A stretch of 52,021 nt of DNA from Actinomycetota bacterium (GCA_036555645.1 DATBLA010000162.1:1-52021); one strand, 5' to 3'. Positions 773 through 27,390 are shown, counted from the stretch's first letter. The notes: a model not told the origin generated them from the letters alone. A program made the numbers and translations.

Positions 773-793
773 CCCGGCGGCCGCAGCGCCGGC

Positions 794-6314: not shown

Positions 6315-6619
6315 GCCTGCGAGGCCTCGGCCGCGTCGGCGCGTGCCTCCGTGACCCCGTCGTCCGAATCATTCGGCCGGTAGGTGCGGCGCACCTCGTT
6401 CGTCGTCGTGTGGCGCTCGGCCAGGAACCAGGTCCGGCACCCGTCGCGGTGCAACCACCACTCGGTCTGCCAGCCGTTCACGTTGTCACGGAAGAACAGG
6501 TAGCCGGCCAGGTCGGCGTCCGAGGAGTCCGGACCCGCCCGGCGCGACCGCTCGCCTCCGTAGGAGAACTCGAGCGCCTCCCTCGGACCGCAGTTCGGGC
6601 ACTCGATCAGGAAGGTCAT
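6311..6619 (-). CDS. soxD: Sarcosine oxidase delta-type subunit
   Basis: 102 aa starting MTFLIECPNCGPREALEFSYGGE...WWLHRDGCRTWF (zinc-ribbon SoxD signature). Its stop overlaps the soxA start by 4 nt. Confidence 0.9.
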   Translation of the reverse strand: MTFLIECPNCGPREALEFSYGGERSRRAGPDSSDADLAGYLFFRDNVNGWQTEWWLHRDGCRTWFLAERHTTTNEVRRTYRPNDSDDGVTEARADAAEASQA

Positions 6620-6677: not shown

Positions 6678-7163
6678 TCAGCCGGGGACGTCGCCCGGGA
6701 CCCACAGGAGACAGGTGACCCGTTCCCGCACGGCGCGAAGCGCCCGGCGGTAGCGCCGCCTCCGAAGGACCGAGCGATCGAGACCGAACACGAGCAGCCC
6801 CGGACGCACGTCGGCCACGAGCTCGACGAGGGCCTCGACCGGCCGCGGGCTCCGTACCCGGAGACGCTCCACGTGGACGCCGAGCGACCTCGCAAGGTCC
6901 GCGGAGCGCTTGAGGGAGGCCGAGACGTCGGGAGTGAGCTCGGGCAGCGTGTCGTACCCGAGCGCGATCGACATGCGAAGCGGCTCCAGCGTGGTGACGT
7001 TGGCGACCACGAGCCGCTGGCCGGACTCGACGGCCGTGTCGACGGCGAAGACCGAGGCCTCCTCGTCGAGCGGCACGCCCATCGTCGCGAGCAGCACCGG
7101 CCGCCCGCCCGCCCCCCTGCCGTTCGACAGGTCGGTCCCGCGATCCCGGGTGCGAACGCCCAT
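6678..7163 (-). CDS. Hypothetical protein, possibly a universal-stress-protein-like alpha/beta fold (start uncertain; alternative ATG at 7082)
   Basis: The only long ORF in this gap with a non-repetitive composition. No diagnostic motif was recognised. Confidence 0.4.
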   Translation of the reverse strand: MGVRTRDRGTDLSNGRGAGGRPVLLATMGVPLDEEASVFAVDTAVESGQRLVVANVTTLEPLRMSIALGYDTLPELTPDVSASLKRSADLARSLGVHVERLRVRSPRPVEALVELVADVRPGLLVFGLDRSVLRRRRYRRALRAVRERVTCLLWVPGDVPG

Positions 7164-7166
7164 GCC

Positions 7167-7550
7167 CTACTCGGGATGGAGCTGCCAGTGCGGCAGGTTC
7201 CGTGCGCGTCGGCGGACCTTCTGGCGCCAGCGCGGCATGTAGACGAGGAACCAGAACGCCATGAGCCCGAGGACGATCGGAAGGACCCGCTGGACGTCGA
7301 GGTTCGCCAGGACGATGGCCGCCCCGACGCCGAACGCGAGCGAGACCGCCACCACCTGCAACCGGTAGCGCCGCATCTCGCGCATGATGCCCCAGTACTC
7401 CTCCGCGGGGATCTGCTCGGTGTTCCAGCGCCGCGAGCAGTCCGGGCACGACCACGTCTGTCCGTACGGCACGCGCTCGACCTGACCGCAGTCGCATCGG
7501 ATCGTGATCGGGGCCCCGCGCATCGGCGGGATTGTATCCCCGGGGCGCAT
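7167..7550 (-). CDS. Zinc-ribbon membrane protein, hypothetical (alternative start at 7523)
   Basis: CDCG...CPDCSRRW four-Cys ribbon followed by two hydrophobic helices (VVAVSLAFGVGAAIVLA, VLPIVLGLMAFWFLVYM). Confidence 0.5.
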   Translation of the reverse strand: MRPGDTIPPMRGAPITIRCDCGQVERVPYGQTWSCPDCSRRWNTEQIPAEEYWGIMREMRRYRLQVVAVSLAFGVGAAIVLANLDVQRVLPIVLGLMAFWFLVYMPRWRQKVRRRARNLPHWQLHPE

Positions 7551-7630: not shown

Positions 7631-9142
7631 GTGGCTGAGGCCGTCATCGAGGAACGCCAACTCCTCAAGTCTCTGCACTGGTACGACGGGTTCGTCATCG
7701 CGCTGTGCCAACCGGCGTTCCTCCTCGGGTCGCTCGGCTTCACGCTGGCGACGATCGGCGCCTGGGGGTCGGTCCTGCTGTGGGGCATCTCCGCGACGGT
7801 CGGCCTCCTCCAGAACTTCATCTATACGGAGACCGCCACGATGTTCCCGGACAAGCCCGGCGGGATCGCGCTGTACGCGCACGAGGGATGGCGCTCGCGC
7901 TTCAACCTGTTCGGGCCGATCGCCGCGTTCGGGTACTGGATCGGCTGGTCGGTCGTGCTCTCGTTCGTTGGGAACATCGTCGGCGCGCTCGTCGTGGCCG
8001 AGTGGTTCCCCCAGTCGGGCGACGGCACCGATGACGCGTTCTTCAACCTCGGGTTCGCCGACTTCGGCCTCGCTCAGCTCATCGCCATCGTGGTGATCCT
8101 CGCGGTCTGGGCGTTCAACGTGCTCGGGGTCAAACCCTCGCTCGCGGTCGGCTACGTCACCGGCGCGTTGCTGATGGTGCCGCTGTTCATCTTCATCGTC
8201 ATGCCGTACATCACGGGCGACTGGTCCAGCTCGAACCTCGAGTACGTCCACAACGCCGGCGACCCGTCCCTCGGATTCAGCGACCTGTCGGTGGCCTTGA
8301 TGTGGCTGTTCATCATGTGTTGGTCCGCCTACGGGATCGAGGTCTGCGCGACCTTCGCGCCCGAGTACCACGACACGAAGCGCGACACCGCGAAGGCCCT
8401 GAAGAGCGCCGCGGCGTTCTCGCTGTTCGTGTACATCTTCCTGCCGCTCGGCCTGGGCGGCGTCGTCGGCTCGACGGGTGACTACGGCAGCTTCTACGTC
8501 GCGGCACTCGAGGAGATCGCCGGGCCGGTGGTCGGCGGGTTCGCCGTGGTGTGCCTCATCGGGAGCTTGATCCTGGCGATGAACACCGCCACGGCCGACG
8601 GGGGCCGCGCGCTCTACGGGATCGCTCGCGACGACATGACGATCAAGTGGTTCTTCCACCTGAACCGGTTCCACGTGCCGGCCCGTGGGATGACCGTCGA
8701 CATGGTCGTGAACCTCGGATTGCTCGTCCTCCTGGGCGCGAACAACTTCGTGATCCTGTACATCTCGAACATCGGGTACGTGTTCTGTCACGTCCTCGCG
8801 CTCACTGGGTTCCTGTTGCTCCGGCGCGATCGTCCCCAGTGGCCGCGCCCGATCAAGGTGGGCGGGGCGTGGTTGCCGATCGCCGGCCTGCTCGCCCTGT
8901 TCAACCTCATCCTGGTGCTCTATGGCGTGTTCGATCAGGACCTGGCCGCGTACATCGGCTTCTACGAGTTCACCGGTCTGCCGCTGTTCCTCGGTCTGGG
9001 CGTGCTCGTCGCGTCGGTGCTCCTGTACTTCTACCGGCGCGTGGTCCAGGACAAGGAGAAGATCACCTTCCGCGATCGCGACGTGTCGACGATGCCGAAC
9101 GAGGAGCAGATGGCGCTCCTCCGCGAGGAGTCGATGGCCTAG
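7631..9142 (+). CDS. APC-superfamily amino acid / amine permease
   Basis: GTG 7631 is preceded by GGAAGGGGGA. About 12 hydrophobic segments. The N-terminal LHWYDGFVIALCQP and the overall pattern fit the amino acid/polyamine/organocation family. Confidence 0.8.
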   Translation: MAEAVIEERQLLKSLHWYDGFVIALCQPAFLLGSLGFTLATIGAWGSVLLWGISATVGLLQNFIYTETATMFPDKPGGIALYAHEGWRSRFNLFGPIAAFGYWIGWSVVLSFVGNIVGALVVAEWFPQSGDGTDDAFFNLGFADFGLAQLIAIVVILAVWAFNVLGVKPSLAVGYVTGALLMVPLFIFIVMPYITGDWSSSNLEYVHNAGDPSLGFSDLSVALMWLFIMCWSAYGIEVCATFAPEYHDTKRDTAKALKSAAAFSLFVYIFLPLGLGGVVGSTGDYGSFYVAALEEIAGPVVGGFAVVCLIGSLILAMNTATADGGRALYGIARDDMTIKWFFHLNRFHVPARGMTVDMVVNLGLLVLLGANNFVILYISNIGYVFCHVLALTGFLLLRRDRPQWPRPIKVGGAWLPIAGLLALFNLILVLYGVFDQDLAAYIGFYEFTGLPLFLGLGVLVASVLLYFYRRVVQDKEKITFRDRDVSTMPNEEQMALLREESMA

Positions 9143-9166
9143 CGATCTCGGCGGCGTTCGGATCTC

Positions 9167-9197
9167 GACGGGGGCGGCCCTTCCGGCTGCCCCCGTC
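9167..9197 (+). terminator. Strong GC hairpin after the permease stop (terminator or attenuator candidate, no U-tract)
   Basis: GACGGGGGCGGCC-CTTCC-GGCTGCCCCCGTC: a 13-bp stem with one mismatch and a 5-nt loop, starting 25 nt after the TAG at 9140-9142. Confidence 0.4.
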
Positions 9198-9275
9198 GCC
9201 GTTCGCGCCGCGTTGCTCGCCCGAAGTCCCCGAAACTAGGATGTGGGCCCGCGAGGGCCACCTTTGGAGGACGCG

Positions 9276-10679
9276 ATGTCGGAGAAGATGTGGGGCTCGG
9301 AGCCGTTCTGGGGTCTCGGCTACGACTGGGACCCGGACTGGGTCTACACCGATCGGCAGAAGGAGCTCCGCGCGACGCTCATCGAGCTCTGCGAGCAGGA
9401 GCTGCGCGCCAACTCGAAGCGCTTCGACGACGAGCTCATGTTCCCCCGGCGGAACCTCGAGCTCCTGGGTGAGCACGGGTTCCTCGCGCTCACCGTCCCC
9501 GAGGCGTACGGCGGTCTGGGCGAGGACCACGTCGCCTACTCGATGGTGTGCGAGACGATCGCCCGGTACGGATGCGCGTCGACGGCGATGTGCTACGTCA
9601 TGCACATCGGGGCCGTGAACGCGATCATGCTCCGAGAGACGCCGGAGCTGATCGACAAGTACATCCGGCCGCTGAACTCGGGCAAGATCGGGACGCTGTC
9701 CTACTCGGACCCGGAGACCGGCTCGCACTTCTGGTACCCGGTCTCCTCGGGTGCCGAACGCTCGAACGGCGGCTACAAGGTCCGCAAGAAGGCGTCGTGG
9801 ACGACCTCGGCGGGGTTCGCCGACTTCTACGTGGTCCAGACGACGAGCCCGGACTTCTCTGGCTACGACGACCTGTCCGTGTTCGTCGTCGACGGCGACC
9901 AGGTCCAGTCGCAGCCGTCGCTGTGGGACGCCCTCGGCCTTCGAGGCAACCAGTCGGGGCCGCTCGAGGTGCCGAACGTGGACGTTCCCGCCGAGCAGAT
10001 CGTCGGGCCGGAGGGCGACGGGGCGAACTCGAACGACGAGTCCGTCGACCCGTGGTTCCTCATCGGCTCGTCGTCGGTGTGGAACGGCCTCGCGCTCGGG
10101 GCGATCGACATCGCCAAGCGCCACACGACGCGCAAGAAGCACGTCGACGTCGGCCTGCGGGTGGCCGACTACCCCACGATCCAGGACTACGTGGGCGAGG
10201 CGCTCATGGACACGAACGCGTGCCGGCTCTTCGTCCTGTCGGTCGCGCAGGCGATGGACCGCGAGACCGACGGCAACACGCGCAACCCCGAGCCCGGCGG
10301 CCTCGCTCGCGGCAACTACCTCCACTGGGCGTGGCAGATCAAGTTCGAGGCGGCCAAGAACGTCGCCCACGTGGTCGACAAGATGCTCCACGCCTGCGGC
10401 GGATCGGGCTACAAGCGCGACATGGAGCTCGAGCGCTACCTGCGCGACGCCAAGGCCGGCTGGGTCATGGGGCCGACGAACGAGGTCCTCCGCCAGTTCG
10501 TCGGGAAGGCCGTCCTGCTCGGGTTCGAGTCGCTCGACTACTGGAACCAGTCGTACAACCGGCGGGCCGTCGAGAACGAGGTGAAGAAGCTCGACGCGGC
10601 CGGCAAGCGCGAGCTCGCCGAGCAGCTGATGTCCGAGGCCGCGGAGCAGGAGCCGAAGGAACCGGCGAAGAAGGGCTAG
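9276..10679 (+). CDS. Acyl-CoA dehydrogenase-fold flavoprotein; probably not a classical ACAD (oxidase or two-component monooxygenase type possible)
   Basis: ATG 9276 follows GGAGGA. ACAD-like N-terminal, middle and C-terminal regions are visible (GFLALTVPEAYGGLG, SYSDPETGSHFW, RYLRDAKAGWVMGPTNEVLRQ). Where MCAD-type enzymes have IYEGTNEI, this protein reads VMGPTNEV, so the catalytic Glu appears replaced by Gly (alignment by eye). Confidence 0.8.
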   Translation: MSEKMWGSEPFWGLGYDWDPDWVYTDRQKELRATLIELCEQELRANSKRFDDELMFPRRNLELLGEHGFLALTVPEAYGGLGEDHVAYSMVCETIARYGCASTAMCYVMHIGAVNAIMLRETPELIDKYIRPLNSGKIGTLSYSDPETGSHFWYPVSSGAERSNGGYKVRKKASWTTSAGFADFYVVQTTSPDFSGYDDLSVFVVDGDQVQSQPSLWDALGLRGNQSGPLEVPNVDVPAEQIVGPEGDGANSNDESVDPWFLIGSSSVWNGLALGAIDIAKRHTTRKKHVDVGLRVADYPTIQDYVGEALMDTNACRLFVLSVAQAMDRETDGNTRNPEPGGLARGNYLHWAWQIKFEAAKNVAHVVDKMLHACGGSGYKRDMELERYLRDAKAGWVMGPTNEVLRQFVGKAVLLGFESLDYWNQSYNRRAVENEVKKLDAAGKRELAEQLMSEAAEQEPKEPAKKG

Positions 10680-10683
10680 ACGG

Positions 10684-13020
10684 ATGCAGGTGGGCGGCGG
10701 GCCCTCGAAGCTCCTGGTCGGCGGACTGCGCCCGGCCGATCCCACGTTCGAGCAGTACTGGGTGCGGCCCGGCGGGGCGACGGTGCTGGCGCTCGAGGCC
10801 GAGGACCGGTTCACCGTGATCGACGTCGACGGCGGTCAGGTTGCGGAGATCTCGGCCCTCGGACCGGACGGCTCGGACGCGGCCGAGGCGATCGGCGCCC
10901 GAGCCGACGCGGCGGCGACGGTGCTGCGATCGCTCGTGACCTCCGCCGCCGAGGGCTCGCAGGACGTCGTCCACGATCTCGCCGCCCGCGGGCTCGACCC
11001 GTCCCGGGCAGAGGCCATCCGCGTGTTCGACCAGTGGTCCCGACCCGGATCCGAACAGTCGTTCCGAACGGACCGCGAGGTCGTCCTCGTCGTGGCCGCC
11101 CCGGCGGGGCGCCTCGTCGACGGTGCCCCCCCGCCGAGCGATCTCGTCGTCGAGGTGCATCGTGCCCGCCCGCGATCACCCGGGGAGATCGAGCTCCCTC
11201 CACCGCTCGCCGAACCGCGTCTGGACTTCCGCATCGACCGGTCGACCGCGCGCAGCTACGAGGTGAAGGCGGGCGAGTTCATCCAGATCATCGACGTCGA
11301 GGGCAAGCAGTGCTCGGACTTCCTCGCGTTCCATCGCCGCAAGCTCGACGACGGGATCGAGCGCGGCCTGGACTCCACCGTCACGCGCACGCTCATGGGC
11401 AGCGCGTACCCGATGCCGGGACTGTTCGGCAAGTTCTACGACGCCGACCTGGACCCGCTCGTCGAGGTGGTCCGGGACACGGTGGGGCGGCACGACACGT
11501 TCGGACTCGCTTGCAACGCAAAGTACTACGAGGACATGGGCTACCCCGGGCACGTGAACTGCACCGACAACTTCAACGGCGCGCTCCTCGTGTACGAGAT
11601 CGCCAAGCGCAAGGGCTGGCCGGCGCTCAACCTGTTCTTCAACACGGCGTTCAACGCCGAGAACGTGCTCGTCTCGGACGAGCCGTGGTCCCGGCCGGGC
11701 GACTACGTGCTGTTCCGGGCGATGACCGGCCTCGTGTGCGCCTCGTCCGCATGCCCGGACGACATCGACCCGGCGAACGCGTGGAACCCCACCGACGTCC
11801 ACGTGCGCGTCTACTCGCCGGAGCACCGGTTCAGCGCCGCGATCGCCCACCGCGTCACCCCGGAGGCGCGACCCGTGCTCACCGACAGGACCGGGTTCCA
11901 CCCGAAGGTCGAGGCGCTCACGCGCAACCTCGTCGAGTACAACGGCTACTGGCTCCCGTCCCACTTCTCCAACGAGGGGGCGATCGCCGAGTACTGGGCG
12001 TGCCGCGAGCACGCGGTGATCATCGACCTGTCGCCCCTTCGCAAGTTCGAGGTCCTCGGGCCGGACGCCGAGTCGCTCATCCAGGCCACGATCACCCGCG
12101 ACGCCCGGCGGGTGTCGGTGGGGCAGGTCACGTACACGGCGATGTGCAACGAGGCCGGCGGGATGATCGACGACGCCACGGTCTTCCGCCTCGCGCAGGA
12201 CAATTTCCGGTTCGTGGGCGGCGACGACTACGACGGCGTGTGGCTGAAGGAGCAGGCCGAGGCCCGGGACCTGAACGTGTGGGTCAAGCCCTCGACCCAC
12301 CAGCTGCACAACGTGGCCGTCCAGGGTCCGGCGAGCCGAGGGATCCTCCGCGAGGTCGTGTGGACGGCCCCGTCGCAGCCCTCGCTCGATGAGCTCGGGT
12401 GGTTCCGCTTCCTGGTCGGACGGGTCCGGGCGACCGACGGCATCCCGATCGTCGTGTCCCGGACCGGGTACACGGGCGAGCTGGGCTACGAGGTGTGGTG
12501 CCATCCCGACGACGCCGAGGCCGTGTGGGACGCCATCTGGGAGGCCGGCGAGGGCCGCGGTCTCACGCCGATGGGCCTGGACGCCCTCGACATCGTGCGG
12601 ATCGAGGCCGGGCTCATCGTGGCCGGCAACGAGTTCGACCAGCAGGTCGATCCGTTCGAGGCCGGCATCGGGTTCACGGTCGACCTGCGCACCGACGAGG
12701 CGTTCGTCGGGCGTTCGGCGCTGGAAGGACGCAAGGAGCATCCGCAGCGCGTGCTCGTGGGGCTCGACGTCGACGGCAACGAGACGCCCGGCCACGGCGA
12801 TCCCGTGTTCGTCGGCCGTCAGGAGATCGGCGTGGTGACCTCGGGCACGCGCTCACCGGTCCTGAAGCGGACGATCGCGCTCGCGCGGGTCGCGGTCGGG
12901 TTCTCCGAGCTCGGGACGCCGGTCGAGATCGGCCAGCTCGACGGGCTCCAGAAACGGATCGCCGCGAGGGTCGTCCGATTCCCCTTCTACGACCCCGAGA
13001 AGACCCGGCCGAGGTCCTGA
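10684..13020 (+). CDS. Fusion protein: degenerate DUF1989-like segment plus canonical DUF1989 (urea-carboxylase-associated / CgdAB-like) domain plus C-terminal aminomethyltransferase (GcvT) fold
   Basis: 778 aa. Residues ~190-400 carry YEVKAGEFIQIIDVEGKQCSDFLAF, GRHDTFGLACN, NLFFNTAF and GDYVLFRAMTGLVCASSACPDD (DUF1989 pattern as I recall it). Residues ~30-190 repeat only the opening motif (RFTVIDVDGGQVAEISAL) and end like a DUF1989 (SDLVVEVHR). Residues ~420-778 carry GcvT motifs (VIIDLSPLRKFEVLGPDA, SRTGYTGELGYEVW, RFPFYDPEKTRPRS). Confidence 0.8.
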   Translation: MQVGGGPSKLLVGGLRPADPTFEQYWVRPGGATVLALEAEDRFTVIDVDGGQVAEISALGPDGSDAAEAIGARADAAATVLRSLVTSAAEGSQDVVHDLAARGLDPSRAEAIRVFDQWSRPGSEQSFRTDREVVLVVAAPAGRLVDGAPPPSDLVVEVHRARPRSPGEIELPPPLAEPRLDFRIDRSTARSYEVKAGEFIQIIDVEGKQCSDFLAFHRRKLDDGIERGLDSTVTRTLMGSAYPMPGLFGKFYDADLDPLVEVVRDTVGRHDTFGLACNAKYYEDMGYPGHVNCTDNFNGALLVYEIAKRKGWPALNLFFNTAFNAENVLVSDEPWSRPGDYVLFRAMTGLVCASSACPDDIDPANAWNPTDVHVRVYSPEHRFSAAIAHRVTPEARPVLTDRTGFHPKVEALTRNLVEYNGYWLPSHFSNEGAIAEYWACREHAVIIDLSPLRKFEVLGPDAESLIQATITRDARRVSVGQVTYTAMCNEAGGMIDDATVFRLAQDNFRFVGGDDYDGVWLKEQAEARDLNVWVKPSTHQLHNVAVQGPASRGILREVVWTAPSQPSLDELGWFRFLVGRVRATDGIPIVVSRTGYTGELGYEVWCHPDDAEAVWDAIWEAGEGRGLTPMGLDALDIVRIEAGLIVAGNEFDQQVDPFEAGIGFTVDLRTDEAFVGRSALEGRKEHPQRVLVGLDVDGNETPGHGDPVFVGRQEIGVVTSGTRSPVLKRTIALARVAVGFSELGTPVEIGQLDGLQKRIAARVVRFPFYDPEKTRPRS

Positions 13021-13024
13021 TCGC

Positions 13025-13897
13025 GTGGCCGAGGCCATCGAACGGTTCACCGACGACCAGGTCGCCTCCTTCCACCGGGACGGGTTCCTCATCGTCGAGG
13101 AGGGACTGGTCGGCGATCGCGCGCTCGAACGCCTTCGCGAACGCTATCTGCCGCTGTTCGACGGCGAGTACGAGACCGGCATCAGGCCCGACGAGGTGAA
13201 CTGGGTGAAGGGTCGCGACCCCGAGGACCGCACGCGCCAGCTCTGCAACGCGTGGAAGTCCGACACGGTGATCGCCGCCCAGGTGCTCTCGGCCAGGATC
13301 GGGCGGCTGGCCGCGCAGCTGATGGGCTACGACGGCGTTCGGATCCTGCAGGACAACGTGCTGTGGAAGCCGCCGGGAACGAAGGCGATCGGCTTCCACC
13401 AGGATGGGTCCTACGCCGACTACCTGGTGCCGCCCGAGATGATCACGTGCTGGATGAGCCTGCACGAGACGGCGGCCGACGCCGGTCCGATCGCGTACGT
13501 GCGCGGCTCGAACCACTGGGGGGTCGCCCCACCCTCGCGGGCCCAGTTCCACGCGCCCGAGGACTGGCTCGCCGGCGTCCGCGACGCACAGCCGGCGGCG
13601 GTGACCGAGCTCGAGGTCGTGCCCGTCGTCGTGAAGGCCGGCGGCGGCGCCTTCCACCACAACGCCACGTGGCACGGCTCCGAGCCCAACCGCAGCGGGA
13701 CCGTCGCGCGGATGGCGCTCGTCTCGCACATGCTGCCGTCGGACGCGCGGTTCCACGAGACGAACGTCGACGTGAACTACTCGCGGTACCGCCGGCGCGA
13801 CGATCCGTCCATGGACGAGTCGTTCTTCCCGGTGATGTGCCGTCGCGACGGCTACCGGACGCCCTGGCTGGCCGACCTCCCCGACATCGACGCCTGA
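13025..13897 (+). CDS. Phytanoyl-CoA dioxygenase (PhyH) family Fe(II)/2-oxoglutarate-dependent oxygenase
   Basis: 290 aa with FHRDGFLIVE, HxD motif (IGFHQDGSY) and distal His (ATWHGSEPNRS). GTG start lies 4 nt after the upstream stop. Confidence 0.85.
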   Translation: MAEAIERFTDDQVASFHRDGFLIVEEGLVGDRALERLRERYLPLFDGEYETGIRPDEVNWVKGRDPEDRTRQLCNAWKSDTVIAAQVLSARIGRLAAQLMGYDGVRILQDNVLWKPPGTKAIGFHQDGSYADYLVPPEMITCWMSLHETAADAGPIAYVRGSNHWGVAPPSRAQFHAPEDWLAGVRDAQPAAVTELEVVPVVVKAGGGAFHHNATWHGSEPNRSGTVARMALVSHMLPSDARFHETNVDVNYSRYRRRDDPSMDESFFPVMCRRDGYRTPWLADLPDIDA

Positions 13898-13910: not shown

Positions 13911-14891
13911 CTACGGGCCGCGGATCCGGCCCGCGAGCACCTCGAGGACCCGCCACGCGAGATCGGGTTCGGCACGCAGGGCCTGTTTCACGGTGTCCCT
14001 GGAGAGCGCGATCACCCGCAGCTGGGTCTCGGCGACGACGTCGGCCGTCCGCGGGCGGCCGTCGAGCATCGCCACCTCCCCGAAGAACTGCCCCGGTCCG
14101 AGACGGGCCACATCCCGCCCGTCCCGAACGACGCGGGCCCGGCCATTGAGGATCACGAACGCCTCACCCCCGCGCTCGCCCTGCCGGATCACCGTCTCGC
14201 CCGCCTCGTGGCCGTGCTCCTCCCCGGCGGACAGCAACCGCTCACGCATCGCGGGGGGCAGGGCCCCGAGGATCGAGCCCTCGGGCGCGGAGAGCGCCTC
14301 GTAGTGGCCGCCGTGGAACAGCAGGGGGTTGCCGCGTCCGTATCGGGCGTACTCGACGTGCGCGAGGAACAGCGAGTGGTCGCCGCCCCAGTACGACCGC
14401 GCGACCCGGGCCACGAGGTGCGCGAGCGCCCCCTCGACGAGCGGCGTCTCGCGGACGACCTCGAAGCTCGGCTCCGCGCCCGATTCGCCCGGGCGTCCGG
14501 CGAACCGATCCGAGAGCGCCTCCTGCTCCTCGGAGAGGACGCTGATCCCGAAGCGCTTGCCCTCGTTCAGCAACGCGTGCATCCGCGCGCGGTTGTCGAC
14601 CGAGATGAGCACGAGCGGCGGACGGAGCGAGACCGACATGAAGGCGTTCGCGGTCATGCCGTGCACCTGATCCTGTGCCGTCGTCGTGATCACCGTGACG
14701 CCGGTGGCGAACATCCCGAGCGTTCGACGGAAGGCGAGGACCGGATCCTCGCCCTCCTCCCCCTCGATCTGCAGCTCGTCGGCGGGCGGTGACTCCTCCC
14801 ACGCTCCGGAGGCGAGCGCCTCCGCGGCCCACACGGGGAAGGCGCCCACCGGAAGATCGAACTCGACCGGCGCGTCCTGCGGCCGGCTCAC
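13911..14891 (-). CDS. Flavin reductase domain fused to a C-terminal cyclic-nucleotide-binding domain
   Basis: The N-terminal half has FRRTLGMFATGVTVITT...HGMTANAFMSVSLRPPLVLISV (flavin reductase-like FMN-binding fold). The C-terminal half has GPGQFFGEVAMLDGRPRTADVVA (cNMP-binding phosphate-binding cassette). GTG start lies 3 nt after the upstream stop. Confidence 0.8.
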   Translation of the reverse strand: MSRPQDAPVEFDLPVGAFPVWAAEALASGAWEESPPADELQIEGEEGEDPVLAFRRTLGMFATGVTVITTTAQDQVHGMTANAFMSVSLRPPLVLISVDNRARMHALLNEGKRFGISVLSEEQEALSDRFAGRPGESGAEPSFEVVRETPLVEGALAHLVARVARSYWGGDHSLFLAHVEYARYGRGNPLLFHGGHYEALSAPEGSILGALPPAMRERLLSAGEEHGHEAGETVIRQGERGGEAFVILNGRARVVRDGRDVARLGPGQFFGEVAMLDGRPRTADVVAETQLRVIALSRDTVKQALRAEPDLAWRVLEVLAGRIRGP

Positions 14892-14894
14892 CGC

Positions 14895-16232
14895 TCAGCT
14901 CCAGGGGAACGGCGAGTGACTCACCGGGTGGAGCCTGCCCTGCGCGTATCGCGAGAACCGGAACGGCTCGAGGAGCGCCTGGGGCTCGCCGAGCACCTCG
15001 CGGGCCACGAGCGCGCCGACGCCGATCATCTTGTACCCGTGGTTCGAGTCCGCGATCACGTGCACGTTCTCGTGGAACCGGTCGAACACCGGGAAGCTGT
15101 CGGGCGTGAACGCCCCGATCCCGCCGGTCGGCGCCCGGCGATAGAGAGGACGCTTGCCCTCGAATCGTTTGTGGCAGTGCGCGAGCGCCGAGGTCCACAT
15201 CCGCTCGAACGCCTCCCCCACGACGAACTGCGTGCTGTCCGGACCGTACGGGTCCACGGCGACCTCGTCGGCGGGCAGCTCGACCACCCACGGCATCGCC
15301 CCGCCCTGCACCCCGCCGAAGTTGAAGTCGGGCTTGTAGTAGATGCCCCACAGCTCCTCGGTGACGAGCGAGCCGTCCGCATCGTCCAGGAGCGGCGCGT
15401 CGGTGTCGACGTGGACGACGGGCGGGAGGTTGCCCTCGTTGTCGAGCAGATACGTCGGATCGACGCCGAGCGTGCCCTCGACGAGACACCAGTACGTCCA
15501 CATGGGGCGCTCGTAGACGGCGCCGTCTCGTCCCTTGACCGGCACGACGGCCGGGAGGTCGAGCATGTGCCAGAAGTCCCGGACCCACGGGCCCGCCGCG
15601 ACGACGACCTGCTCGCACGCGATCACGCCCTGATCGGTCCGGACCGCCGTCACCGCGCCGCCGTCGATGTCGAACCCGGTGACGCTGACCGGGGCGAACA
15701 TGCGGACCCCGAGCGCCTCGCCCTTTCCGCGGAGCCCCACCATCGACGGCTGGCTCTCCGCGTAGCCGCCCTTGCGCTCGTGCAGGACGACCGTGATGTT
15801 GCGGGCCTGCCAGTCGGAGAAGATCGACTCCATGTACGTCCGGCACTCGTCCTCGCCCTCGATGAGGTCCGACGGGTAGCCGATCGCCCGTTGCTCCTCG
15901 TGGATCGTGACGACGTCCTCGTGCATGACCTCGGGCGCGATCTGGAGGTACCCCACCGGGTGGTAGTGGAAGGCCGCCGGATCCGACTCCCAGACCTCGA
16001 CCGAGTGCGCCATGAGCTCGCGCATCGCCGGCTGGAAGTAGTTGTTGCGGATGACGCCGCACGCGAGACCGGACGGGCCCGCCCCCACGCCGGTCTTGTC
16101 GAGCACGATGACGTCCTCGCCCGAGCCGGTCCCGCGGGCCCGCAGCCCCTCGGCCAGGTGCCAGGACGCGGACAGGCCGTGGACGCCGGCGCCGATGACC
16201 ACGACGCGCGCGCTCGTGGGGAGACTCGTCAC
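14895..16232 (-). CDS. FAD-dependent oxidoreductase, SoxB/DAO-like (second paralogue in the window, no partner subunits adjacent)
   Basis: GTG 16232 forms a GTGA overlap with the VOC gene stop. Contains ARVVVIGAGVHGLSASWHLA, GVIRNNYFQP and C-terminal SNHGYKMIGVG, collinear by eye with SoxB at 1676..2890. Confidence 0.8.
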   Translation of the reverse strand: MTSLPTSARVVVIGAGVHGLSASWHLAEGLRARGTGSGEDVIVLDKTGVGAGPSGLACGVIRNNYFQPAMRELMAHSVEVWESDPAAFHYHPVGYLQIAPEVMHEDVVTIHEEQRAIGYPSDLIEGEDECRTYMESIFSDWQARNITVVLHERKGGYAESQPSMVGLRGKGEALGVRMFAPVSVTGFDIDGGAVTAVRTDQGVIACEQVVVAAGPWVRDFWHMLDLPAVVPVKGRDGAVYERPMWTYWCLVEGTLGVDPTYLLDNEGNLPPVVHVDTDAPLLDDADGSLVTEELWGIYYKPDFNFGGVQGGAMPWVVELPADEVAVDPYGPDSTQFVVGEAFERMWTSALAHCHKRFEGKRPLYRRAPTGGIGAFTPDSFPVFDRFHENVHVIADSNHGYKMIGVGALVAREVLGEPQALLEPFRFSRYAQGRLHPVSHSPFPWS

Positions 16233-16597
16233 ACGCTCTGCCCCCGGGCGTCGCACACGCAGAACAGGGTCCCGTGGGGCGCCGTCATCGTCGTCCACGC
16301 GCCGCCGCCGCGGTCGCGCTCGTCGACGCGCCAGGCCACGGTCGCTCCGAGCCCCTCCAGCCGGCGGACCTCGGCGTCGGGGTCGTCGACACGCAGGTCG
16401 AGGTGCACGGGTGTCTTGCCGGGGGCGACCGCGTCCACGCGCTGGATGAGCACGGGCGGACCCGCCCCGCTCCTGGGCCCGAGCACGATGTACGGATCCC
16501 GCTCGTACCGGCGCCCGTAGCCGAGCGCCTCGGACCAGAACGCCGCGGCGTCGTCGGCCTCGACGGCGTCGATCACGATCTCCAGGGAGGCCGTCAC
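16229..16597 (-). CDS. VOC (glyoxalase/bleomycin-resistance/dioxygenase) family protein
   Basis: 122 aa from GTG 16597 (GTGA overlap with the upstream stop). FWSEALGY...VHLDLRVDD...GGAWTTMTAPHGTLFCV resembles single-module VOC proteins. Confidence 0.65.
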   Translation of the reverse strand: MTASLEIVIDAVEADDAAAFWSEALGYGRRYERDPYIVLGPRSGAGPPVLIQRVDAVAPGKTPVHLDLRVDDPDAEVRRLEGLGATVAWRVDERDRGGGAWTTMTAPHGTLFCVCDARGQSV

Positions 16598-17379
16598 GGT
16601 ACCCCCGCGGTCGCGAGGCGATCGTCCGCGCGGCGCGTGCACGCCCGCACGAAGTCCCGCCAGATCTCCAGCATCCGGTCGTCCTGCTGCCACTCCTCGT
16701 GGAGCTCCCACTGAACGCCGAGGACGAACGACGGCGCGCCGGGCATCTCGATCGCCTCGACGACGCCGTGGGCCGCCCACGCGACCGGCTCGATCCCTTC
16801 GCCCGGCCGATCGATCGCCTGGTGGTGGTAGCTGTCGACGTCGGTGCGGCCCCCGAGGCGCGACCCGAGGAAGGAGCCGGGCTTCACGTCGATCGGATGC
16901 GTCGGGTGCGGGGGGCGCTCCCGGCCCTCGAGGGTGGCGGCGACGAGCGCTCGCCACTCGTCCCACTTCGCCCCGGGGTGTCCGCCGCCCGGGAACTCGT
17001 CCAGGTCGCCGAACAGGCTCCCGCCGAAGGCGACGTTGAGGATTTGACACCCCCGACACACGCCGAGCACCGGCACGCCGCTTCCCACGGCGAGGCGCGC
17101 GTAGTGCAGCTCGATCTCGTCGAGCACGGGCGCGGGATCGCCCTGGAGCGGATGTGGATCCTCCCGGCCGTATCTCCACGCTTCGATGTCGCGGCCGCCG
17201 GCGAGCACGAGGCCGTCGAGCCGTTCGATGAGCTCGACGCGATCGTCCTGCTGCTCGTAGTACGGGAGCAGCAGCGGCAACGCCCCCGCGGCGAGCAGCG
17301 GGCGCGAATACCCGAAGCCGTAGTAGTCGCCGTAGTCCGCCAGCCCCTCCGAGATGCCGACGAGCGGACGGGAGGACAC
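16594..17379 (-). CDS. Class-I glutamine amidotransferase-like gamma-glutamyl hydrolase (peptidase C26, PuuD-like)
   Basis: GVCRGCQILNVAFGG (nucleophile Cys) and SYHHQAI (His) are present. GTG 17379 has ACGGAG upstream. The N-terminal part of the 292-aa ORF overlaps the upstream gene. Confidence 0.8.
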   Translation of the reverse strand: MSSRPLVGISEGLADYGDYYGFGYSRPLLAAGALPLLLPYYEQQDDRVELIERLDGLVLAGGRDIEAWRYGREDPHPLQGDPAPVLDEIELHYARLAVGSGVPVLGVCRGCQILNVAFGGSLFGDLDEFPGGGHPGAKWDEWRALVAATLEGRERPPHPTHPIDVKPGSFLGSRLGGRTDVDSYHHQAIDRPGEGIEPVAWAAHGVVEAIEMPGAPSFVLGVQWELHEEWQQDDRMLEIWRDFVRACTRRADDRLATAGVP

Positions 17380-17390
17380 GCGCGGCTCCG

Positions 17391-17825
17391 TCAGTGACCG
17401 GCAGGTTTCTCCCAGCCCTCGAGCGTGGGCGGGGTCCACGAGGTCCCGACGGTCTCGGACCCGTCGACCCACGACCCGAGCAGGGGCTGGGCGAACTTCG
17501 CGTGTCGTCGTTTCAGCTGGATGCCGTACGAGTTCCCGCTCGTCAGGTGCTTCATGAGCACCTTGCGCGCGACCTCGTCCTCCGACCCCTCGGGGATCGG
17601 GAAGTAGATCTTCAGGAACGAGCTGGAGTACCGGTCGAAGACGGCCGGCACGCCGTCCTCCTCGAGCAGGTGGACGTCCTCGAGCCAGTTCAGGTCCTCG
17701 CCCGGCGTGAGCGCCTCCAGGTCGATGTCGTCGAGCAGCGACGCGTCCTCCTGGTACGGGAACCGATGGCCGGCGAGCTCCTCGGCGTCGAGCGTGCCCT
17801 TCGTCGTCAGGTGCGATTCGGTCAT
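17391..17825 (-). CDS. Hypothetical acidic protein (144 aa), unknown function
   Basis: ATG 17825 lies 8 nt after the mgsC TAG, and that stop overlaps an AGGAG RBS. The composition is non-repetitive and protein-like. No motif was recognised. Confidence 0.6.
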   Translation of the reverse strand: MTESHLTTKGTLDAEELAGHRFPYQEDASLLDDIDLEALTPGEDLNWLEDVHLLEEDGVPAVFDRYSSSFLKIYFPIPEGSEDEVARKVLMKHLTSGNSYGIQLKRRHAKFAQPLLGSWVDGSETVGTSWTPPTLEGWEKPAGH

Positions 17826-19243: not shown

Positions 19244-19262
19244 GTTCGGATCCTCCCGCTGG

Positions 19263-20974: not shown

Positions 20975-20998
20975 GCGGGCTCGACTCCTCTCGCCGAA

Positions 20999-22396: not shown

Positions 22397-22560
22397 CAAC
22401 GCCTCCCCTCGCGTGGGCAGTCCGGCGGAACGGCATCTTAGGTCATCGAGCCTTCCGCGTGCATGCGCGCGCCGGCCCGCGGCGGCACGCACCCCCGAGG
22501 CTCGCGCGGGCAGCGCGGGGTATCCTCGCGCGGACCCCGAGCGAGGAGAGACCGCCCACG

Positions 22561-27319: not shown

Positions 27320-27390
27320 GGGATCCTCCGGTCGCTGGAGACGGCATCCTCCCACGGGTTTGACTCACCGTTCAACCGCCGCAACCGGGC

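What the first reader, a model, noticed from the sequence alone, without database searches (positions are those of the whole stretch)
7631..13897. Candidate undescribed catabolic module: (APC permease) + non-canonical ACAD-fold flavoprotein + tandem-DUF1989-GcvT fusion + PhyH dioxygenase
Three tightly spaced plus-strand genes (gaps of 4 nt) follow an amine/amino-acid permease. (1) The ACAD-fold protein has VMGPTNEV where MCAD-type enzymes have IYEGTNEI, so it probably lacks the catalytic base. This is typical of ACAD-fold oxidases and flavin-dependent N/S-monooxygenases that use a separate flavin reductase, and one is encoded convergently at 13911..14891. (2) The 778-aa protein joins DUF1989 modules to a folate-dependent aminomethyltransferase fold. 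To my recollection DUF1989 is the fold of the carboxyguanidine deiminase CgdAB subunits of the guanidine carboxylase pathway. (3) The third gene is an Fe/2OG PhyH oxygenase. In DMGO/SoxA-type enzymes the GcvT fold captures an oxidised N-methyl group as methylene-THF. Here it is detached from a DAO-type oxidase and attached to an amidino/ureido-handling fold. I know of no characterised pathway with this composition. A demethylating route for an N-methylated guanidino or ureido compound (methylguanidine, creatine-like, dimethylguanidine) is one speculative reading.
Basis: inference. Interest (0 to 1): 0.75.

Follow-up and report, generated by a model that had tools for sequence, protein, structure and literature searches.

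The report
TMAO demethylase operon with unknown partners
The "undescribed" 778-aa fusion is the known enzyme trimethylamine N-oxide demethylase inside a methylated-amine catabolic island, but its tightly linked partner, an acyl-CoA-dehydrogenase-fold flavoprotein with its own flavin reductase, is an undescribed and widely conserved companion that probably supplies a missing oxygenase step.

Summary
The central novelty claim fails. The 778-aa DUF1989-GcvT protein is TMAO demethylase (Tdm): it scores above the NCBIfam equivalog cut-off, matches the solved Paracoccus TDM over its full length (E 6e-261), and keeps all Zn-site and substrate residues.

The surroundings are a methylamine island: TmoP-like permease, gmaS, mgsABC, soxBDAG-like genes, FTHFS and a formate dehydrogenase. 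The substrate is therefore TMAO/TMA, not a methylated guanidine.

What remains new is the partnership. The ACAD-fold protein lacks the catalytic Glu. It lies directly upstream of tdm in 51 of 70 related loci with enough upstream DNA, and also next to tdm in cyanobacterial contigs. A flavin reductase accompanies it in 33 of 37 well-flanked ACAD loci and in 0 of 11 loci without it. More distant homologues, including animal genes, are fused to an NAD(P)H-flavin reductase module. Canonical Tmm (FMO) mostly alternates with it.

My best reading (about 0.5) is a two-component methylamine N-oxygenase that feeds Tdm. The main rival (about 0.27) is a dimethylamine monooxygenase acting after Tdm. PhyH recurs in one actinobacterial subclade and in Leptolyngbya; I propose it as a 2OG-dependent N-demethylase. 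No paper in the searchable library describes either partner.

The parts
7631..9142 (+). APC-family permease, TmoP-like (probable TMAO or methylamine importer). The start could be 7532 or 7631.
   Evidence: Pfam AA_permease_2, 132 bits. The best NCBIfam hit is the TMAO permease NF053774 at 205.6 bits, below its 690 cut-off; the next hit scores only 48 bits. Present in 41 of 80 tdm loci.
9166..9198 (+). GC-rich hairpin in the 133-nt spacer between the permease and the ACAD-like gene. It could be a terminator, attenuator or processing site.
   Evidence: MFE -73.2 kcal/mol for the spacer, z -2.84 against shuffles.
9276..10679 (+). ACAD-fold flavoprotein without the catalytic Glu. Proposed oxygenase component of a two-component methylamine monooxygenase.
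   Evidence: Pfam ACAD N, M and C domains. YEG is replaced by MGP. AlphaFold model pLDDT 89.7, and the closest folds are ACADs at TM about 0.9. Immediately upstream of tdm in 51 of 70 loci. Homologues are fused to FAD_binding_6 + NAD_binding_1.
10684..13020 (+). Trimethylamine N-oxide demethylase (Tdm): N-terminal DUF1989-like domain, Zn-binding DUF1989 core, and GcvT THF-binding domain.
   Evidence: NCBIfam NF053776 equivalog 1177 bits against cut-off 1100. PDB 9q59/9q5a/9q5l at E 6e-261 over residues 7-778. D212, C277, C293, F319, C357 and D359 match the Paracoccus residues D220, C285, C301, F327, C365 and D367.
13025..13897 (+). PhyH-family Fe(II)/2-oxoglutarate dioxygenase of unknown substrate. 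Proposed N-demethylase, with DMA to MMA as the best guess.
   Evidence: Pfam PhyH 83.9 bits. The FHQDG and WHGS iron-binding motifs are conserved with the Leptolyngbya homologue. The best solved relatives are only weak: MysH at 7e-9 and SnoK. Present in 23 of 80 tdm loci, and at 47% identity in a cyanobacterial tdm cluster.
13911..14891 (-). NAD(P)H-flavin reductase fused to a cyclic-nucleotide-binding domain. Proposed reductase component for the ACAD-fold oxygenase.
   Evidence: Pfam Flavin_Reduct + cNMP_binding. HpaC/StyB-type by NCBIfam. Found in 33 of 37 ACAD-containing loci and 0 of 11 loci without ACAD. The cNMP fusion is confined to the window's subclade.
14895..16298 (-). Divergent DAO-family FAD oxidoreductase ('DAO467'), sarcosine-oxidase-beta-like. 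It travels with gmaS-mgsABC and with a C26/GATase1 hydrolase.
   Evidence: Pfam DAO on residues 31-256 only. Weak soxB and DMGO similarity. Present in 45 of 80 loci. DAO-GS-MgsABC order in L089 and L092.
16594..17472 (-). Peptidase_C26 / PuuD-like gamma-glutamyl-amide hydrolase.
   Evidence: Pfam Peptidase_C26 160 bits. A GATase1/C26 gene follows DAO467 in L056 and L034.
17834..22492 (-). mgsC (17834-19243), mgsB (19263-20045), mgsA (20045-20974) and a gmaS-like type III glutamine synthetase (20999-22492): the N-methylglutamate pathway for monomethylamine.
   Evidence: Pfam Glu_synthase, GXGXG, GATase_6 and Gln-synt_C. NCBIfam type III GS and gamma-glutamylputrescine-synthetase-like.
1676..6619 (-). 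soxD (6311-6619), soxA (3513-6314), soxG (2890-3516) and soxB (1676-2896): heterotetrameric sarcosine-oxidase-type enzyme, the expected N-methylglutamate dehydrogenase (MgdABCD-like).
   Evidence: NCBIfam soxA 770 bits and soxB 465 bits, both below the subfamily cut-offs. Pfam SoxD; GCV_T on the soxG-position ORF.
6678..7550 (-). Usp-family protein (6678-7163) and a 127-aa zinc-ribbon protein (CxC...CxxC) with two hydrophobic stretches that look like membrane helices by eye (7167-7550). They are divergent from the permease and conserved alongside it.
   Evidence: Pfam Usp. No Pfam family for the 127-aa protein. The two are found together with the permease in about 30-36 loci.
22459..24231 (+). 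Formate-tetrahydrofolate ligase (C1 handling).
   Evidence: Pfam FTHFS 809 bits. Also next to tdm in Streptosporangiaceae and Pseudonocardia loci.
26210..27355 (-). Stand-alone GcvT-like THF-binding protein.
   Evidence: Pfam GCV_T + GCV_T_C. The best NCBIfam match is the C-terminal half of Tdm, 221.6 bits.

Best explanation
The region is the upper half of a methylated-amine catabolic island in an uncultured high-GC soil actinobacterium.

Shown:
- The 778-aa protein is TMAO demethylase (Tdm). Tdm splits TMAO at a Cys3-Zn site into dimethylamine and formaldehyde, and captures the formaldehyde on tetrahydrofolate in its GcvT domain.
- The flanking operons encode the monomethylamine (N-methylglutamate) route and C1 handling.

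Inferred:
- The TmoP-like permease imports TMAO or a related methylamine.
- The ACAD-fold protein has lost the dehydrogenase base. Together with the convergently encoded flavin reductase it forms a two-component, NAD(P)H-driven flavin monooxygenase.
- This monooxygenase N-oxygenates trimethylamine, and possibly dimethylamine as well, so it makes the N-oxide substrate of Tdm. On this reading it is a non-homologous stand-in for the FMO-type Tmm.
- PhyH, translationally coupled to tdm, is a 2-oxoglutarate-dependent N-demethylase that takes dimethylamine on to monomethylamine. That would make the gene order permease, ACAD, Tdm, PhyH match the reaction order.

Confidence by step: Tdm identity about 0.95; ACAD plus reductase as a monooxygenase pair about 0.75; acting before Tdm as an N-oxygenase about 0.5; the PhyH role about 0.3.
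For: Tdm:
- NCBIfam equivalog above cut-off.
- Full-length match to the solved TDM.
- All Zn and substrate residues conserved.

Context:
- gmaS, mgsABC, soxBDAG, FTHFS, FdhD and a formate-dehydrogenase-like gene.

ACAD-fold protein and reductase:
- The catalytic Glu is absent across the whole clade.
- The gene is directly upstream of tdm in 51 of 70 loci from Actinomycetota, Acidobacteriota and Latescibacterota. It is also next to tdm in cyanobacterial contigs and other metagenomic contigs.
- A flavin reductase is present in 33 of 37 ACAD loci and in 0 of 11 loci without ACAD.
- In Streptosporangiaceae, ACAD and the reductase are gained or lost as a unit in otherwise syntenic loci.
- Homologues at 35-51% identity are fused to an FNR-type NAD(P)H reductase module, or are followed by a gene that hits its FAD-binding domain.
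- Canonical Tmm (FMO) flanks tdm mostly where ACAD is absent: 35 ACAD-only, 7 FMO-only, 2 both, 4 neither.
- ACAD always precedes tdm in gene order.
- From established knowledge: N-oxygenation of a tertiary amine is the standard reaction of a flavin C4a-hydroperoxide, and ACAD-fold N- and S-oxygenases exist (DszC, KijD3, isobutylamine N-hydroxylase).

PhyH:
- Intact HxD...H motifs, a 4-nt gap to tdm, recurrence in the Leptolyngbya tdm cluster, and MysH as the best solved relative. From memory, not checked here, MysH is an oxidative N-dealkylase.
Against: - No biochemistry exists for any partner.
- By sequence and by fold, the ACAD-like protein is closest to true dehydrogenases, not to known ACAD-fold monooxygenases.
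- Four Pseudonocardia loci carry ACAD next to tdm and an FMO gene, and lack a nearby reductase. In L056 that FMO scores as Tmm (NF058570, 785 against cut-off 675). If ACAD were a Tmm analogue this would be redundant.
- In clusters such as L092 (DAO-gmaS-mgsABC-amt-ACAD-tdm-reductase), an N-oxygenase role leaves the DMA-to-MMA step unassigned. A DMA monooxygenase role would close the pathway.
- The permease resembles a TMAO importer, which would make a TMA oxygenase unnecessary.
- The co-occurrence statistics are not corrected for phylogeny.
- PhyH is absent from most ACAD-tdm loci.
Confidence: 0.5

Rival explanations
1. The ACAD-fold protein and its flavin reductase act after Tdm as a dimethylamine (secondary-amine) monooxygenase. 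They would be a non-homologous replacement for DmmDABC, converting DMA to monomethylamine plus formaldehyde. The operon would then run: imported TMAO, DMA, MMA, N-methylglutamate pathway.
For: - This gives a gap-free pathway in clusters that hold only ACAD, reductase and Tdm plus gmaS-mgsABC-DAO (L089, L092).
- It explains Pseudonocardia, where an FMO-type Tmm gene (scored as Tmm in L056), Tdm and ACAD sit in one row like proteobacterial tmm-tdm-dmm.
- It fits a TmoP-like TMAO permease at the head of the operon.
- No DMA monooxygenase candidate was found in the Gram-positive methylotroph genomes examined in PMC5023230.
- No Dmm-like genes were seen among the window ORFs I scanned.
Against: - Oxidative demethylation of a secondary amine is not a known reaction of ACAD-fold flavoenzymes. 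From established knowledge, simple N-hydroxylation of DMA does not by itself give MMA.
- FMO-only and 'core-only' tdm loci would then lack any nearby DMA enzyme.
- ACAD and FMO are anticorrelated around tdm.
- The animal fusion homologues have no Tdm partner, and DMA oxidation has no obvious role there.
- PhyH is left without a role.
Confidence: 0.27
2. The ACAD-like protein is not an oxygenase for a pathway intermediate. It would instead be an accessory of Tdm, for example a structural partner or channeling scaffold, or a flavin-based system that keeps a redox-sensitive metal site of Tdm reduced.
For: - It is very strongly conserved: 82-94% identity among the 120 best cluster representatives. 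Across the related loci ACAD is 61-97% identical against 54-87% for Tdm.
- It has clade-specific N- and C-terminal extensions.
- Translational coupling to tdm.
- The Methylocella Tdm was reported to need Fe2+, and from general knowledge flavin reductases can reduce iron.
Against: - The Paracoccus and Methylocella Tdm enzymes are active alone.
- Many tdm loci lack the ACAD gene.
- Homologues occur without tdm, and occur in animals fused to a reductase. That points to an autonomous catalytic function.
Confidence: 0.1
3. The ACAD-like protein is a real acyl-CoA (or acyl-carrier) dehydrogenase or desulfinase-type enzyme, unrelated to methylamines and adjacent to tdm for other reasons.
For: - The best sequence and fold matches are short-chain ACADs.
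- The best NCBIfam hit is the Rv1679/FadE16 family, at 220 bits.
- A family-conserved acidic residue, E255, could in principle be an alternative base.
Against: - Both known base positions are non-acidic. The MCAD Glu376 position is Gly. The residue that I place at the IVD Glu254 position is Trp; that placement rests on my memory of the IVD motif, read through the 3pfd alignment.
- No ETF genes or beta-oxidation partners are in the operon.
- Adjacency to tdm persists across four phyla, along with linkage or fusion to NAD(P)H-flavin reductases.
Confidence: 0.05
4. One reading: an undescribed route that demethylates an N-methylated guanidino or ureido compound, using a CgdAB-like DUF1989 module.
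For: DUF1989 is shared with the urea-carboxylase-associated (CgdAB-type) proteins, with weak hits to TIGR03424 and TIGR03425.
Against: - The protein passes the Tdm equivalog cut-off and keeps the TMAO-binding residues.
- CgdAB-type scores are far below their cut-offs.
- No guanidine or urea carboxylase, allophanate hydrolase or guanidinase was seen in the window.
Confidence: 0.02

Closest known systems
Proteobacterial aerobic TMA oxidation cluster tmm-tdm-dmmDABC with mgsABC-gmaS-mgdABCD (Methylocella silvestris, Ruegeria pomeroyi, Aminobacter, Paracoccus)
   Same: Same Tdm enzyme, by equivalog score, architecture and catalytic residues. Same downstream N-methylglutamate module, THF-linked C1 capture, and a TmoP-like APC permease.
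   Different: The window has no FMO-type Tmm and no DmmDABC. In their place are an ACAD-fold flavoprotein, a flavin reductase (here fused to a cNMP-binding domain), a PhyH dioxygenase, a divergent DAO oxidoreductase and a C26 hydrolase.
Paracoccus TDM (PDB 9Q59, 9Q5A, 9Q5L) and Methylocella silvestris Tdm
   Same: Three-domain layout: DUF1989-like N-terminal domain, Cys3-Zn DUF1989 core, GcvT domain. D220, F327, D367 and the three Cys residues are conserved. H290 and D360 sit where an offset from the matched Cys positions places the Methylocella H276 and D346 (sequence).
   Different: The N-terminal domain has diverged. Activity, oligomeric state and metal content are untested here.
Two-component ACAD-fold (group D) flavin monooxygenases: DszC/DszD, SfnB, HsaAB, C2-HpaH, isobutylamine N-hydroxylase, KijD3/ORF36 nitrososynthases
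   Same: ACAD fold without a dehydrogenase base. Dependence on a separate HpaC/StyB-type flavin reductase is inferred from linkage. N- and S-oxygenation chemistry is a precedent (the precedent is established knowledge).
   Different: Sequence scores to these families are very low, 38-63 bits against cut-offs of 430-850. The nearest relatives and folds are true dehydrogenases. The protein has its own N- and C-terminal extensions. No member of this clade has been characterised.
FMO-type trimethylamine monooxygenase Tmm (NCBIfam NF058570)
   Same: Occupies the gene slot next to tdm. Mostly alternates with the ACAD/reductase pair among actinobacterial tdm loci.
   Different: Unrelated fold and a single-component, NADPH-dependent enzyme. 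It co-exists with the ACAD gene in Pseudonocardia.
CgdAB carboxyguanidine deiminase / urea-carboxylase-associated DUF1989 proteins (TIGR03424, TIGR03425)
   Same: Shared DUF1989 fold. Two DUF1989-type modules side by side echo the CgdA/CgdB pair.
   Different: Far below the family cut-offs. Fused to GcvT. The residues and context are those of TMAO demethylation.
Puu pathway (PuuA gamma-glutamyl-amine synthetase, PuuB DAO-type oxidase, PuuD C26 hydrolase)
   Same: The minus-strand operon combines a PuuA-like GS, a DAO-family oxidase and a PuuD-like hydrolase.
   Different: It is embedded with mgsABC. The substrates would be methylamine-derived gamma-glutamyl amides. Scores are far below the Puu equivalog cut-offs.

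Membership tests
TMAO demethylase Tdm (NCBIfam NF053776) | Whole-protein score above the curated equivalog cut-off | tested here: met
   1177 bits against cut-off 1100, covering residues 20-777.
TMAO demethylase Tdm | Architecture: DUF1989-like N-terminal domain + Zn-binding DUF1989 + GCV_T + GCV_T_C | tested here: met
   Pfam DUF1989 on 184-349, GCV_T on 406-664, GCV_T_C on 689-770. The N-terminal domain is only weakly DUF1989-like, as published for Tdm.
TMAO demethylase Tdm | Cys3-Zn site and TMAO/DMA-contacting residues (Paracoccus C285, C301, C365, D220, F327, D367) | tested here: met
   C277, C293, C357, D212, F319 and D359 in the window protein.
TMAO demethylase Tdm | Catalysis: TMAO to DMA plus formaldehyde or methylene-THF | not testable with these tools
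   Needs an enzyme assay.
TMAO permease TmoP (NCBIfam NF053774) | Score above the equivalog cut-off | tested here: not met
   205.6 bits against cut-off 690. It is still by far the best-scoring family, so the protein is TmoP-like but not a confirmed TmoP.
Catalytically competent acyl-CoA dehydrogenase | Three-domain ACAD fold | tested here: met
   Pfam N, M and C domains. Model pLDDT 89.7, TM about 0.9 to ACAD structures.
Catalytically competent acyl-CoA dehydrogenase | Catalytic Glu at the MCAD Glu376 (YEG) position | tested here: not met
   VMGPTNEV aligns with IYEGTNQI, so the position is Gly. M398 and P400 are invariant or nearly so in the clade.
Catalytically competent acyl-CoA dehydrogenase | Alternative catalytic Glu at the IVD Glu254 position | tested here: inconclusive
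   Read through the 3pfd alignment, the position corresponds to Trp260. The placement of the IVD residue is from memory. A clade-conserved E255 lies five residues upstream and cannot be excluded as a base.
Two-component ACAD-fold flavin monooxygenase (group D) | Dedicated NAD(P)H-flavin reductase partner | tested here: met
   Flavin_Reduct gene lies convergent. It is present in 33 of 37 ACAD loci and 0 of 11 loci without ACAD. It is in the same operon in L063, L089 and L092. Homologues are fused to FNR-type reductases.
Two-component ACAD-fold flavin monooxygenase (group D) | Sequence membership in a characterised oxygenase family (DszC, SfnB, HsaA, C2-HpaH) | tested here: not met
   38-63 bits against cut-offs of 430-850.
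Two-component ACAD-fold flavin monooxygenase (group D) | O2- and reduced-flavin-dependent oxygenation of a substrate | not testable with these tools
   Needs reconstitution.
FMO-type trimethylamine monooxygenase Tmm (NF058570) | FMO fold and equivalog score | tested here: not met
   None of the window ORFs scanned hits FMO-like. A true Tmm is found in L056, at 785 against cut-off 675. The ACAD-like protein may work like Tmm, but it is not a member.
PhyH Fe(II)/2OG dioxygenase (PF05721) | Pfam score above gathering threshold, plus the HxD...H iron triad | tested here: met
   83.9 bits against 22. FHQDG and WHGS are conserved with the Leptolyngbya homologue.
CgdAB / urea-amidolyase-associated DUF1989 proteins (TIGR03424, TIGR03425) | Score above the equivalog cut-off | tested here: not met
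   82 against 284.7, and 48 against 205.95.
N-methylglutamate pathway (GmaS, MgsABC, MgdABCD) | GS-III-like, GATase-II, GXGXG and Glu_synthase proteins plus SoxBDAG-like subunits encoded together | tested here: met
   All domain families are present in the expected order. NCBIfam scores are below the generic soxA, soxB and GS-III cut-offs, so subunit identity is inferred from context.

The most novel reading that the evidence does not exclude
The ACAD-fold protein defines an uncharacterised family of reductase-dependent methylamine N-oxygenases, which would be a further, non-FMO kind of trimethylamine monooxygenase.

The family is widespread next to tdm in soil Actinomycetota, Acidobacteriota, Latescibacterota and cyanobacteria. 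With Tdm it may work iteratively: N-oxygenate, demethylate, repeat. That would strip methyl groups from TMA down to MMA or beyond, with each C1 unit captured on THF.

Its animal homologues, fused to an NADH-cytochrome-b5-reductase-like module in crustaceans, barnacles, corals, brachiopods, annelids and a chiton, would then be candidate TMAO-forming enzymes of marine invertebrates.
Probability: 0.3. Interest if true: 0.85.

Novelty: new variant of a known kind. Interest (0 to 1): 0.6.

Why it matters
Methylated amines (TMA, TMAO, DMA) matter in three areas. They are nitrogen and C1 currencies in soils and oceans, precursors of climate-active aerosols, and medically watched metabolites.

The aerobic pathway is defined genetically only for Proteobacteria (Tmm, Tdm, DmmDABC). 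A genomic survey of Gram-positive methylotrophs found no candidate for the DMA step (PMC5023230).

This locus shows that many soil Actinomycetota, and also Acidobacteriota, Latescibacterota and cyanobacteria, pair a bona fide Tdm with an ACAD-fold flavoprotein and a flavin reductase rather than with the known partners.

If that pair is the TMA- or DMA-oxidising enzyme, several things follow:
- Marker-gene surveys based on tmm and dmm would miss much of the environmental capacity for methylamine turnover.
- It would add a reaction type to the ACAD-fold monooxygenases.
- It would give a function to an uncharacterised animal gene family.

For the finding as written, the practical message is that the DUF1989-GcvT fusion is a known enzyme and should be annotated as Tdm.

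Tried and rejected
- **Foldseek of the ACAD-like model against the PDB.** It returned only generic ACADs at TM about 0.9. It did not separate dehydrogenase from oxygenase.
- **Literature searches.** I searched for an ACAD-like or two-component enzyme, or a PhyH enzyme, in TMA/DMA metabolism. Nothing relevant came back. This is absence in the searchable library only.
- **Internal-repeat test for 'tandem DUF1989'.** Only marginal similarity. The question was settled by the published model.
- **DAO467 as the dimethylamine dehydrogenase.** I considered this because the protein is present in ACAD-type, FMO-type and 'core-only' loci. I downgraded it because it consistently travels with gmaS-mgsABC and a C26/GATase1 hydrolase. 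That fits better with a role in N-methylglutamate or gamma-glutamylmethylamide oxidation.
- **ACAD as a strict Tmm replacement.** This is weakened by Pseudonocardia loci that carry both.
- **Search for FMO or Dmm genes in the window.** None found among the ORFs scanned. ORFs at 24.6-26.2 kb and 27.4-28.3 kb have no family hit and may not be genes.
- **Contexts of more distant ACAD-like homologues.** P0248, L085 and L091 lack tdm, so the link to tdm is not universal for the wider clade.
- **Promoter and terminator scan of the operon.** Uninformative.

Full report
**1. What is in the sequence**

The window is about 70% G+C. It encodes, on the plus strand:
- an APC permease (7631 or 7532 to 9142);
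- an ACAD-fold protein;
- a 778-aa DUF1989 + GCV_T + GCV_T_C protein (10684-13020);
- a PhyH dioxygenase (13025-13897).

A Flavin_Reduct + cNMP_binding protein lies convergent at 13911-14891.

The ACAD gene starts at the ATG at 9276, behind a GGAGGA ribosome-binding site. This gives 467 aa, matching its homologues. The 4-nt gaps between ACAD, the 778-aa gene and PhyH are real. The permease is separated from ACAD by 133 nt that fold into a strong hairpin. VMGPTNEV aligns with IYEGTNQI of a solved ACAD, so the canonical catalytic Glu is a Gly.

**2. The 778-aa fusion is a known enzyme**

- It scores 1177 bits on NCBIfam NF053776, the 'trimethylamine N-oxide demethylase' equivalog with cut-off 1100.
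- It matches the cryo-EM structures of Paracoccus TDM (9Q59, 9Q5A, 9Q5L) over residues 7-778 at E 6e-261.
- The eLife 2026 paper on that structure names a Cys3-Zn site (C285, C301, C365) and the residues D220, F327 and D367, which contact TMAO or DMA. All six are conserved here as C277, C293, C357, D212, F319 and D359.
- The N-terminal 180 residues resemble DUF1989 only marginally. This agrees with the published description of a DUF1989-like third domain lacking the Zn cysteines (PMC12560246).
- Scores against the CgdAB-type families are far below their cut-offs.

**3. Genomic context**

Downstream on the minus strand, one long operon reads gmaS-like GS-III, mgsA (GATase-II), mgsB (GXGXG), mgsC (Glu_synthase), a PuuD-like C26 hydrolase, a divergent DAO-family oxidoreductase ('DAO467'), and the flavin reductase.

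Upstream lie soxD-soxA-soxG-soxB, then FdhD and a formate-dehydrogenase-type molybdoenzyme. FTHFS and a stand-alone GcvT-like protein follow further on.

This is the N-methylglutamate route for monomethylamine plus C1 handling. In Proteobacteria the same module accompanies tmm-tdm-dmmDABC. None of the window ORFs I scanned hits an FMO-type Tmm or a Dmm subunit.

**4. Conservation of the partners**

A scan of one genome per species with the Tdm protein returned 80 loci. Most are soil Actinomycetota MAGs, with some Acidobacteriota, Latescibacterota, Pseudonocardia, Streptosporangiaceae, Streptomyces and Microthrix.

- The ACAD-like gene lies immediately upstream of tdm in 51 of the 70 loci that have at least 1.5 kb of upstream DNA. 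It is 61-97% identical across these loci, against 54-87% for Tdm itself.
- Among the 48 loci with at least 5 kb on both sides, a flavin reductase is present in 33 of 37 ACAD loci and in none of the 11 loci without ACAD. Fisher p is 6e-8, not corrected for phylogeny.
- In Streptosporangiaceae, otherwise syntenic loci differ by the joint presence or absence of ACAD before tdm and a short reductase after it.
- A canonical FMO gene flanks tdm in 17 loci. Among the 48 well-flanked loci the split is 35 ACAD-only, 7 FMO-only, 2 both and 4 neither. The FMO of L056 scores 785 bits on the Tmm equivalog, against a cut-off of 675.
- PhyH occurs in 23 loci, essentially the window's own subclade.

**5. The ACAD-like family**

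An exhaustive search of 1.8 billion cluster representatives shows a compact clade. Full-length representatives sit at 64, 46 and 40% identity before scores fall to generic ACAD-like proteins.

Alignments show the following:
- the YEG-to-MxP change holds throughout, even in relatives at about 33% identity;
- the clade has its own N-terminal motif (KMWG..FWGLGYE.DP.W);
- it has its own C-terminal helical tail.

Several relatives at 35-51% identity are natural fusions to FAD_binding_6 + NAD_binding_1, an FNR/cytochrome-b5-reductase-type module. In one metagenomic relative a gene hitting FAD_binding_6 follows directly.

These fusions are intron-containing animal genes. They are found in decapods, a stomatopod, an isopod, amphipods including Hirondellea gigas, barnacles, krill, an annelid, a brachiopod, corals and a chiton. 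All are annotated as uncharacterised or misnamed.

Bacterial relatives closest to the animal genes again sit next to tdm:
- In Leptolyngbya sp. NK1-12 the cluster also holds PhyH (47% identical to the window's), a GS-like gene, a DAO gene, Amt and mgsABC.
- In contigs with cyanobacterial gene content, a minimal ACAD-tdm-X operon occurs.
- In other metagenomic contigs the order is ACAD-reductase convergent with tdm, or DAO-GS-mgsABC-Amt-ACAD-tdm-reductase on one strand.

The cyanobacterial Tdm proteins lack the N-terminal domain but keep the catalytic residues. A few homologues occur without tdm.

The AlphaFold model is confident (pLDDT 89.7). It superposes on true ACADs at TM about 0.9, which confirms the fold but does not decide the chemistry.

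**6. Mechanism**

Three steps are well supported:
- Tdm converts TMAO to DMA and methylene-THF.
- The adjacent operons handle MMA and C1 units.
- The ACAD-like protein is an NAD(P)H/flavin-reductase-dependent enzyme rather than an ETF-linked dehydrogenase. This rests on loss of the base, reductase linkage and reductase fusions.

Which substrate it oxygenates is inferred. I favour N-oxygenation upstream of Tdm: TMA to TMAO, and possibly DMA as well. The reasons are:
- this is the standard chemistry of a flavin hydroperoxide, and ACAD-fold N- and S-oxygenases are precedents (established knowledge);
- the gene precedes tdm;
- it mostly alternates with Tmm in the slot next to tdm;
- the animal fusions act without any Tdm, so their product must be useful on its own.

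With PhyH as a 2OG-dependent DMA demethylase, the window's gene order would equal the reaction order.

The main rival is a DMA monooxygenase acting after Tdm. It explains three things better:
- Pseudonocardia loci, where ACAD and an FMO-type Tmm gene both flank tdm and no reductase is nearby;
- clusters such as L092, which would otherwise lack a DMA-to-MMA step;
- the TmoP-like importer at the head of the operon.

An iterative model reconciles both. In it the oxygenase N-oxygenates TMA and then DMA, and Tdm demethylates each product. This is untested.

**7. Comparison with the known, and novelty**

Tdm itself is a new member of a known family. The permease is TmoP-like but below the equivalog cut-off. 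The ACAD-like protein fails membership in every characterised ACAD-fold oxygenase family and lacks the defining base of the dehydrogenases. It is an uncharacterised clade that probably works like a two-component monooxygenase.

Full-text searches found no description of an ACAD-like or PhyH enzyme in methylamine catabolism. A genomic study of Gram-positive methylotrophs explicitly found no DMA monooxygenase candidate.

Overall this is a new variant of a known pathway. The headline claim of the finding is not novel, but the conserved ACAD/reductase-Tdm partnership, with PhyH more loosely attached, is a worthwhile and testable lead.

**8. Limits**

All functional assignments beyond Tdm are guilt-by-association. 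The co-occurrence counts are not phylogenetically independent. Most loci are MAG fragments. Whole-genome presence or absence of Tmm and Dmm could not be examined. The position of the IVD-type base is placed from memory.

Noticed in passing
window 2-793 (-), stop codon at 470-472: The formate-dehydrogenase-type molybdopterin oxidoreductase next to FdhD is interrupted by one in-frame TGA, within the motif SCNRT*HAPSVVGL. From memory, this is where the active-site Cys/Sec lies in formate dehydrogenases. It is probably a selenocysteine codon rather than a pseudogene. No SECIS element was sought.
   Followed up: partly
P0245, P0271, P0391-P0454; loci L081 and L082: Animal genes with introns encode the same ACAD-like clade (35-46% identity to the window protein) fused to a cytochrome-b5-reductase-like FAD/NAD module. 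They occur in decapods, a stomatopod, an isopod, amphipods, barnacles, krill, an annelid, a brachiopod, corals and a chiton, often in several copies. All are uncharacterised or misnamed (for example 'ACAD9-like', 'nitrate reductase-like').
   Followed up: partly
L084 (Leptolyngbya sp. NK1-12) 9001-12855; L086-L088 about 9001-12716: In cyanobacterial contigs the ACAD-like gene is followed by a short Tdm (607-619 aa) that lacks the N-terminal DUF1989-like domain, which published work called ubiquitous. After it comes a conserved 156-168-aa protein with no family hit. In the L086-L088 contigs, which carry cyanobacterial genes, this three-gene operon stands alone, with no methylamine genes in the flanking 9 kb.
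   Followed up: partly
window 13911-14891 (-): The flavin reductase carries a C-terminal cyclic-nucleotide-binding domain. This fusion is confined to the PhyH-containing subclade of loci; elsewhere the reductase is a stand-alone protein of about 170-200 aa. It suggests cAMP or cGMP control of reduced-flavin supply. A second cNMP-binding protein lies at 49884-50468.
   Followed up: partly
window 14895-17472 (-); L056 14409-16404; L034 13818-15880; L089 17274-21058; L092 1835-7915: The divergent DAO-family oxidoreductase (about 445-467 aa) is consistently next to a C26/GATase1 hydrolase and/or directly ahead of gmaS-mgsABC. Together with the GS-like enzyme this resembles a PuuA/PuuB/PuuD-type gamma-glutamyl cycle. 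It may be a single-subunit N-methylglutamate or gamma-glutamylmethylamide oxidase. The window also has a full soxBDAG set.
   Followed up: partly
window 6678-7550 (-): A Usp-family protein and a 127-aa zinc-ribbon protein (CxC...CxxC) with two hydrophobic stretches that look like membrane helices (judged by eye from the sequence) are divergent from the permease. They are conserved with it in about 30 or more loci, even where the orientation changes. Function unknown; possibly a sensor or regulator of the transporter.
   Followed up: no
window 9143-9275 (+), stem 9166-9198: The permease-ACAD spacer holds a 14-bp GC hairpin (MFE -73 kcal/mol for the spacer, z -2.8). It could be a terminator or attenuator that uncouples permease and enzyme expression. 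Conservation in related loci was not checked.
   Followed up: partly
window 26210-27355 (-): A stand-alone GcvT-like protein scores higher against the C-terminal half of the Tdm model (221.6 bits) than against GcvT itself (203.5 bits). It may capture formaldehyde on THF for another demethylating enzyme, in the way DmmD is thought to.
   Followed up: no
L029, L030, L035, L045 versus L036, L040, L044, L065, L067, L077: Streptosporangiaceae tdm loci are syntenic except for the joint presence or absence of the ACAD-like gene (before tdm) and a short flavin reductase (after tdm). This is a natural presence/absence polymorphism, and growth phenotypes on TMA, TMAO and DMA could be compared across it.
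   Followed up: partly
window 48330-49382 (+): A protein that combines tandem Usp domains with a C-terminal Rieske [2Fe-2S] domain. This is an unusual architecture that I did not pursue.
   Followed up: no
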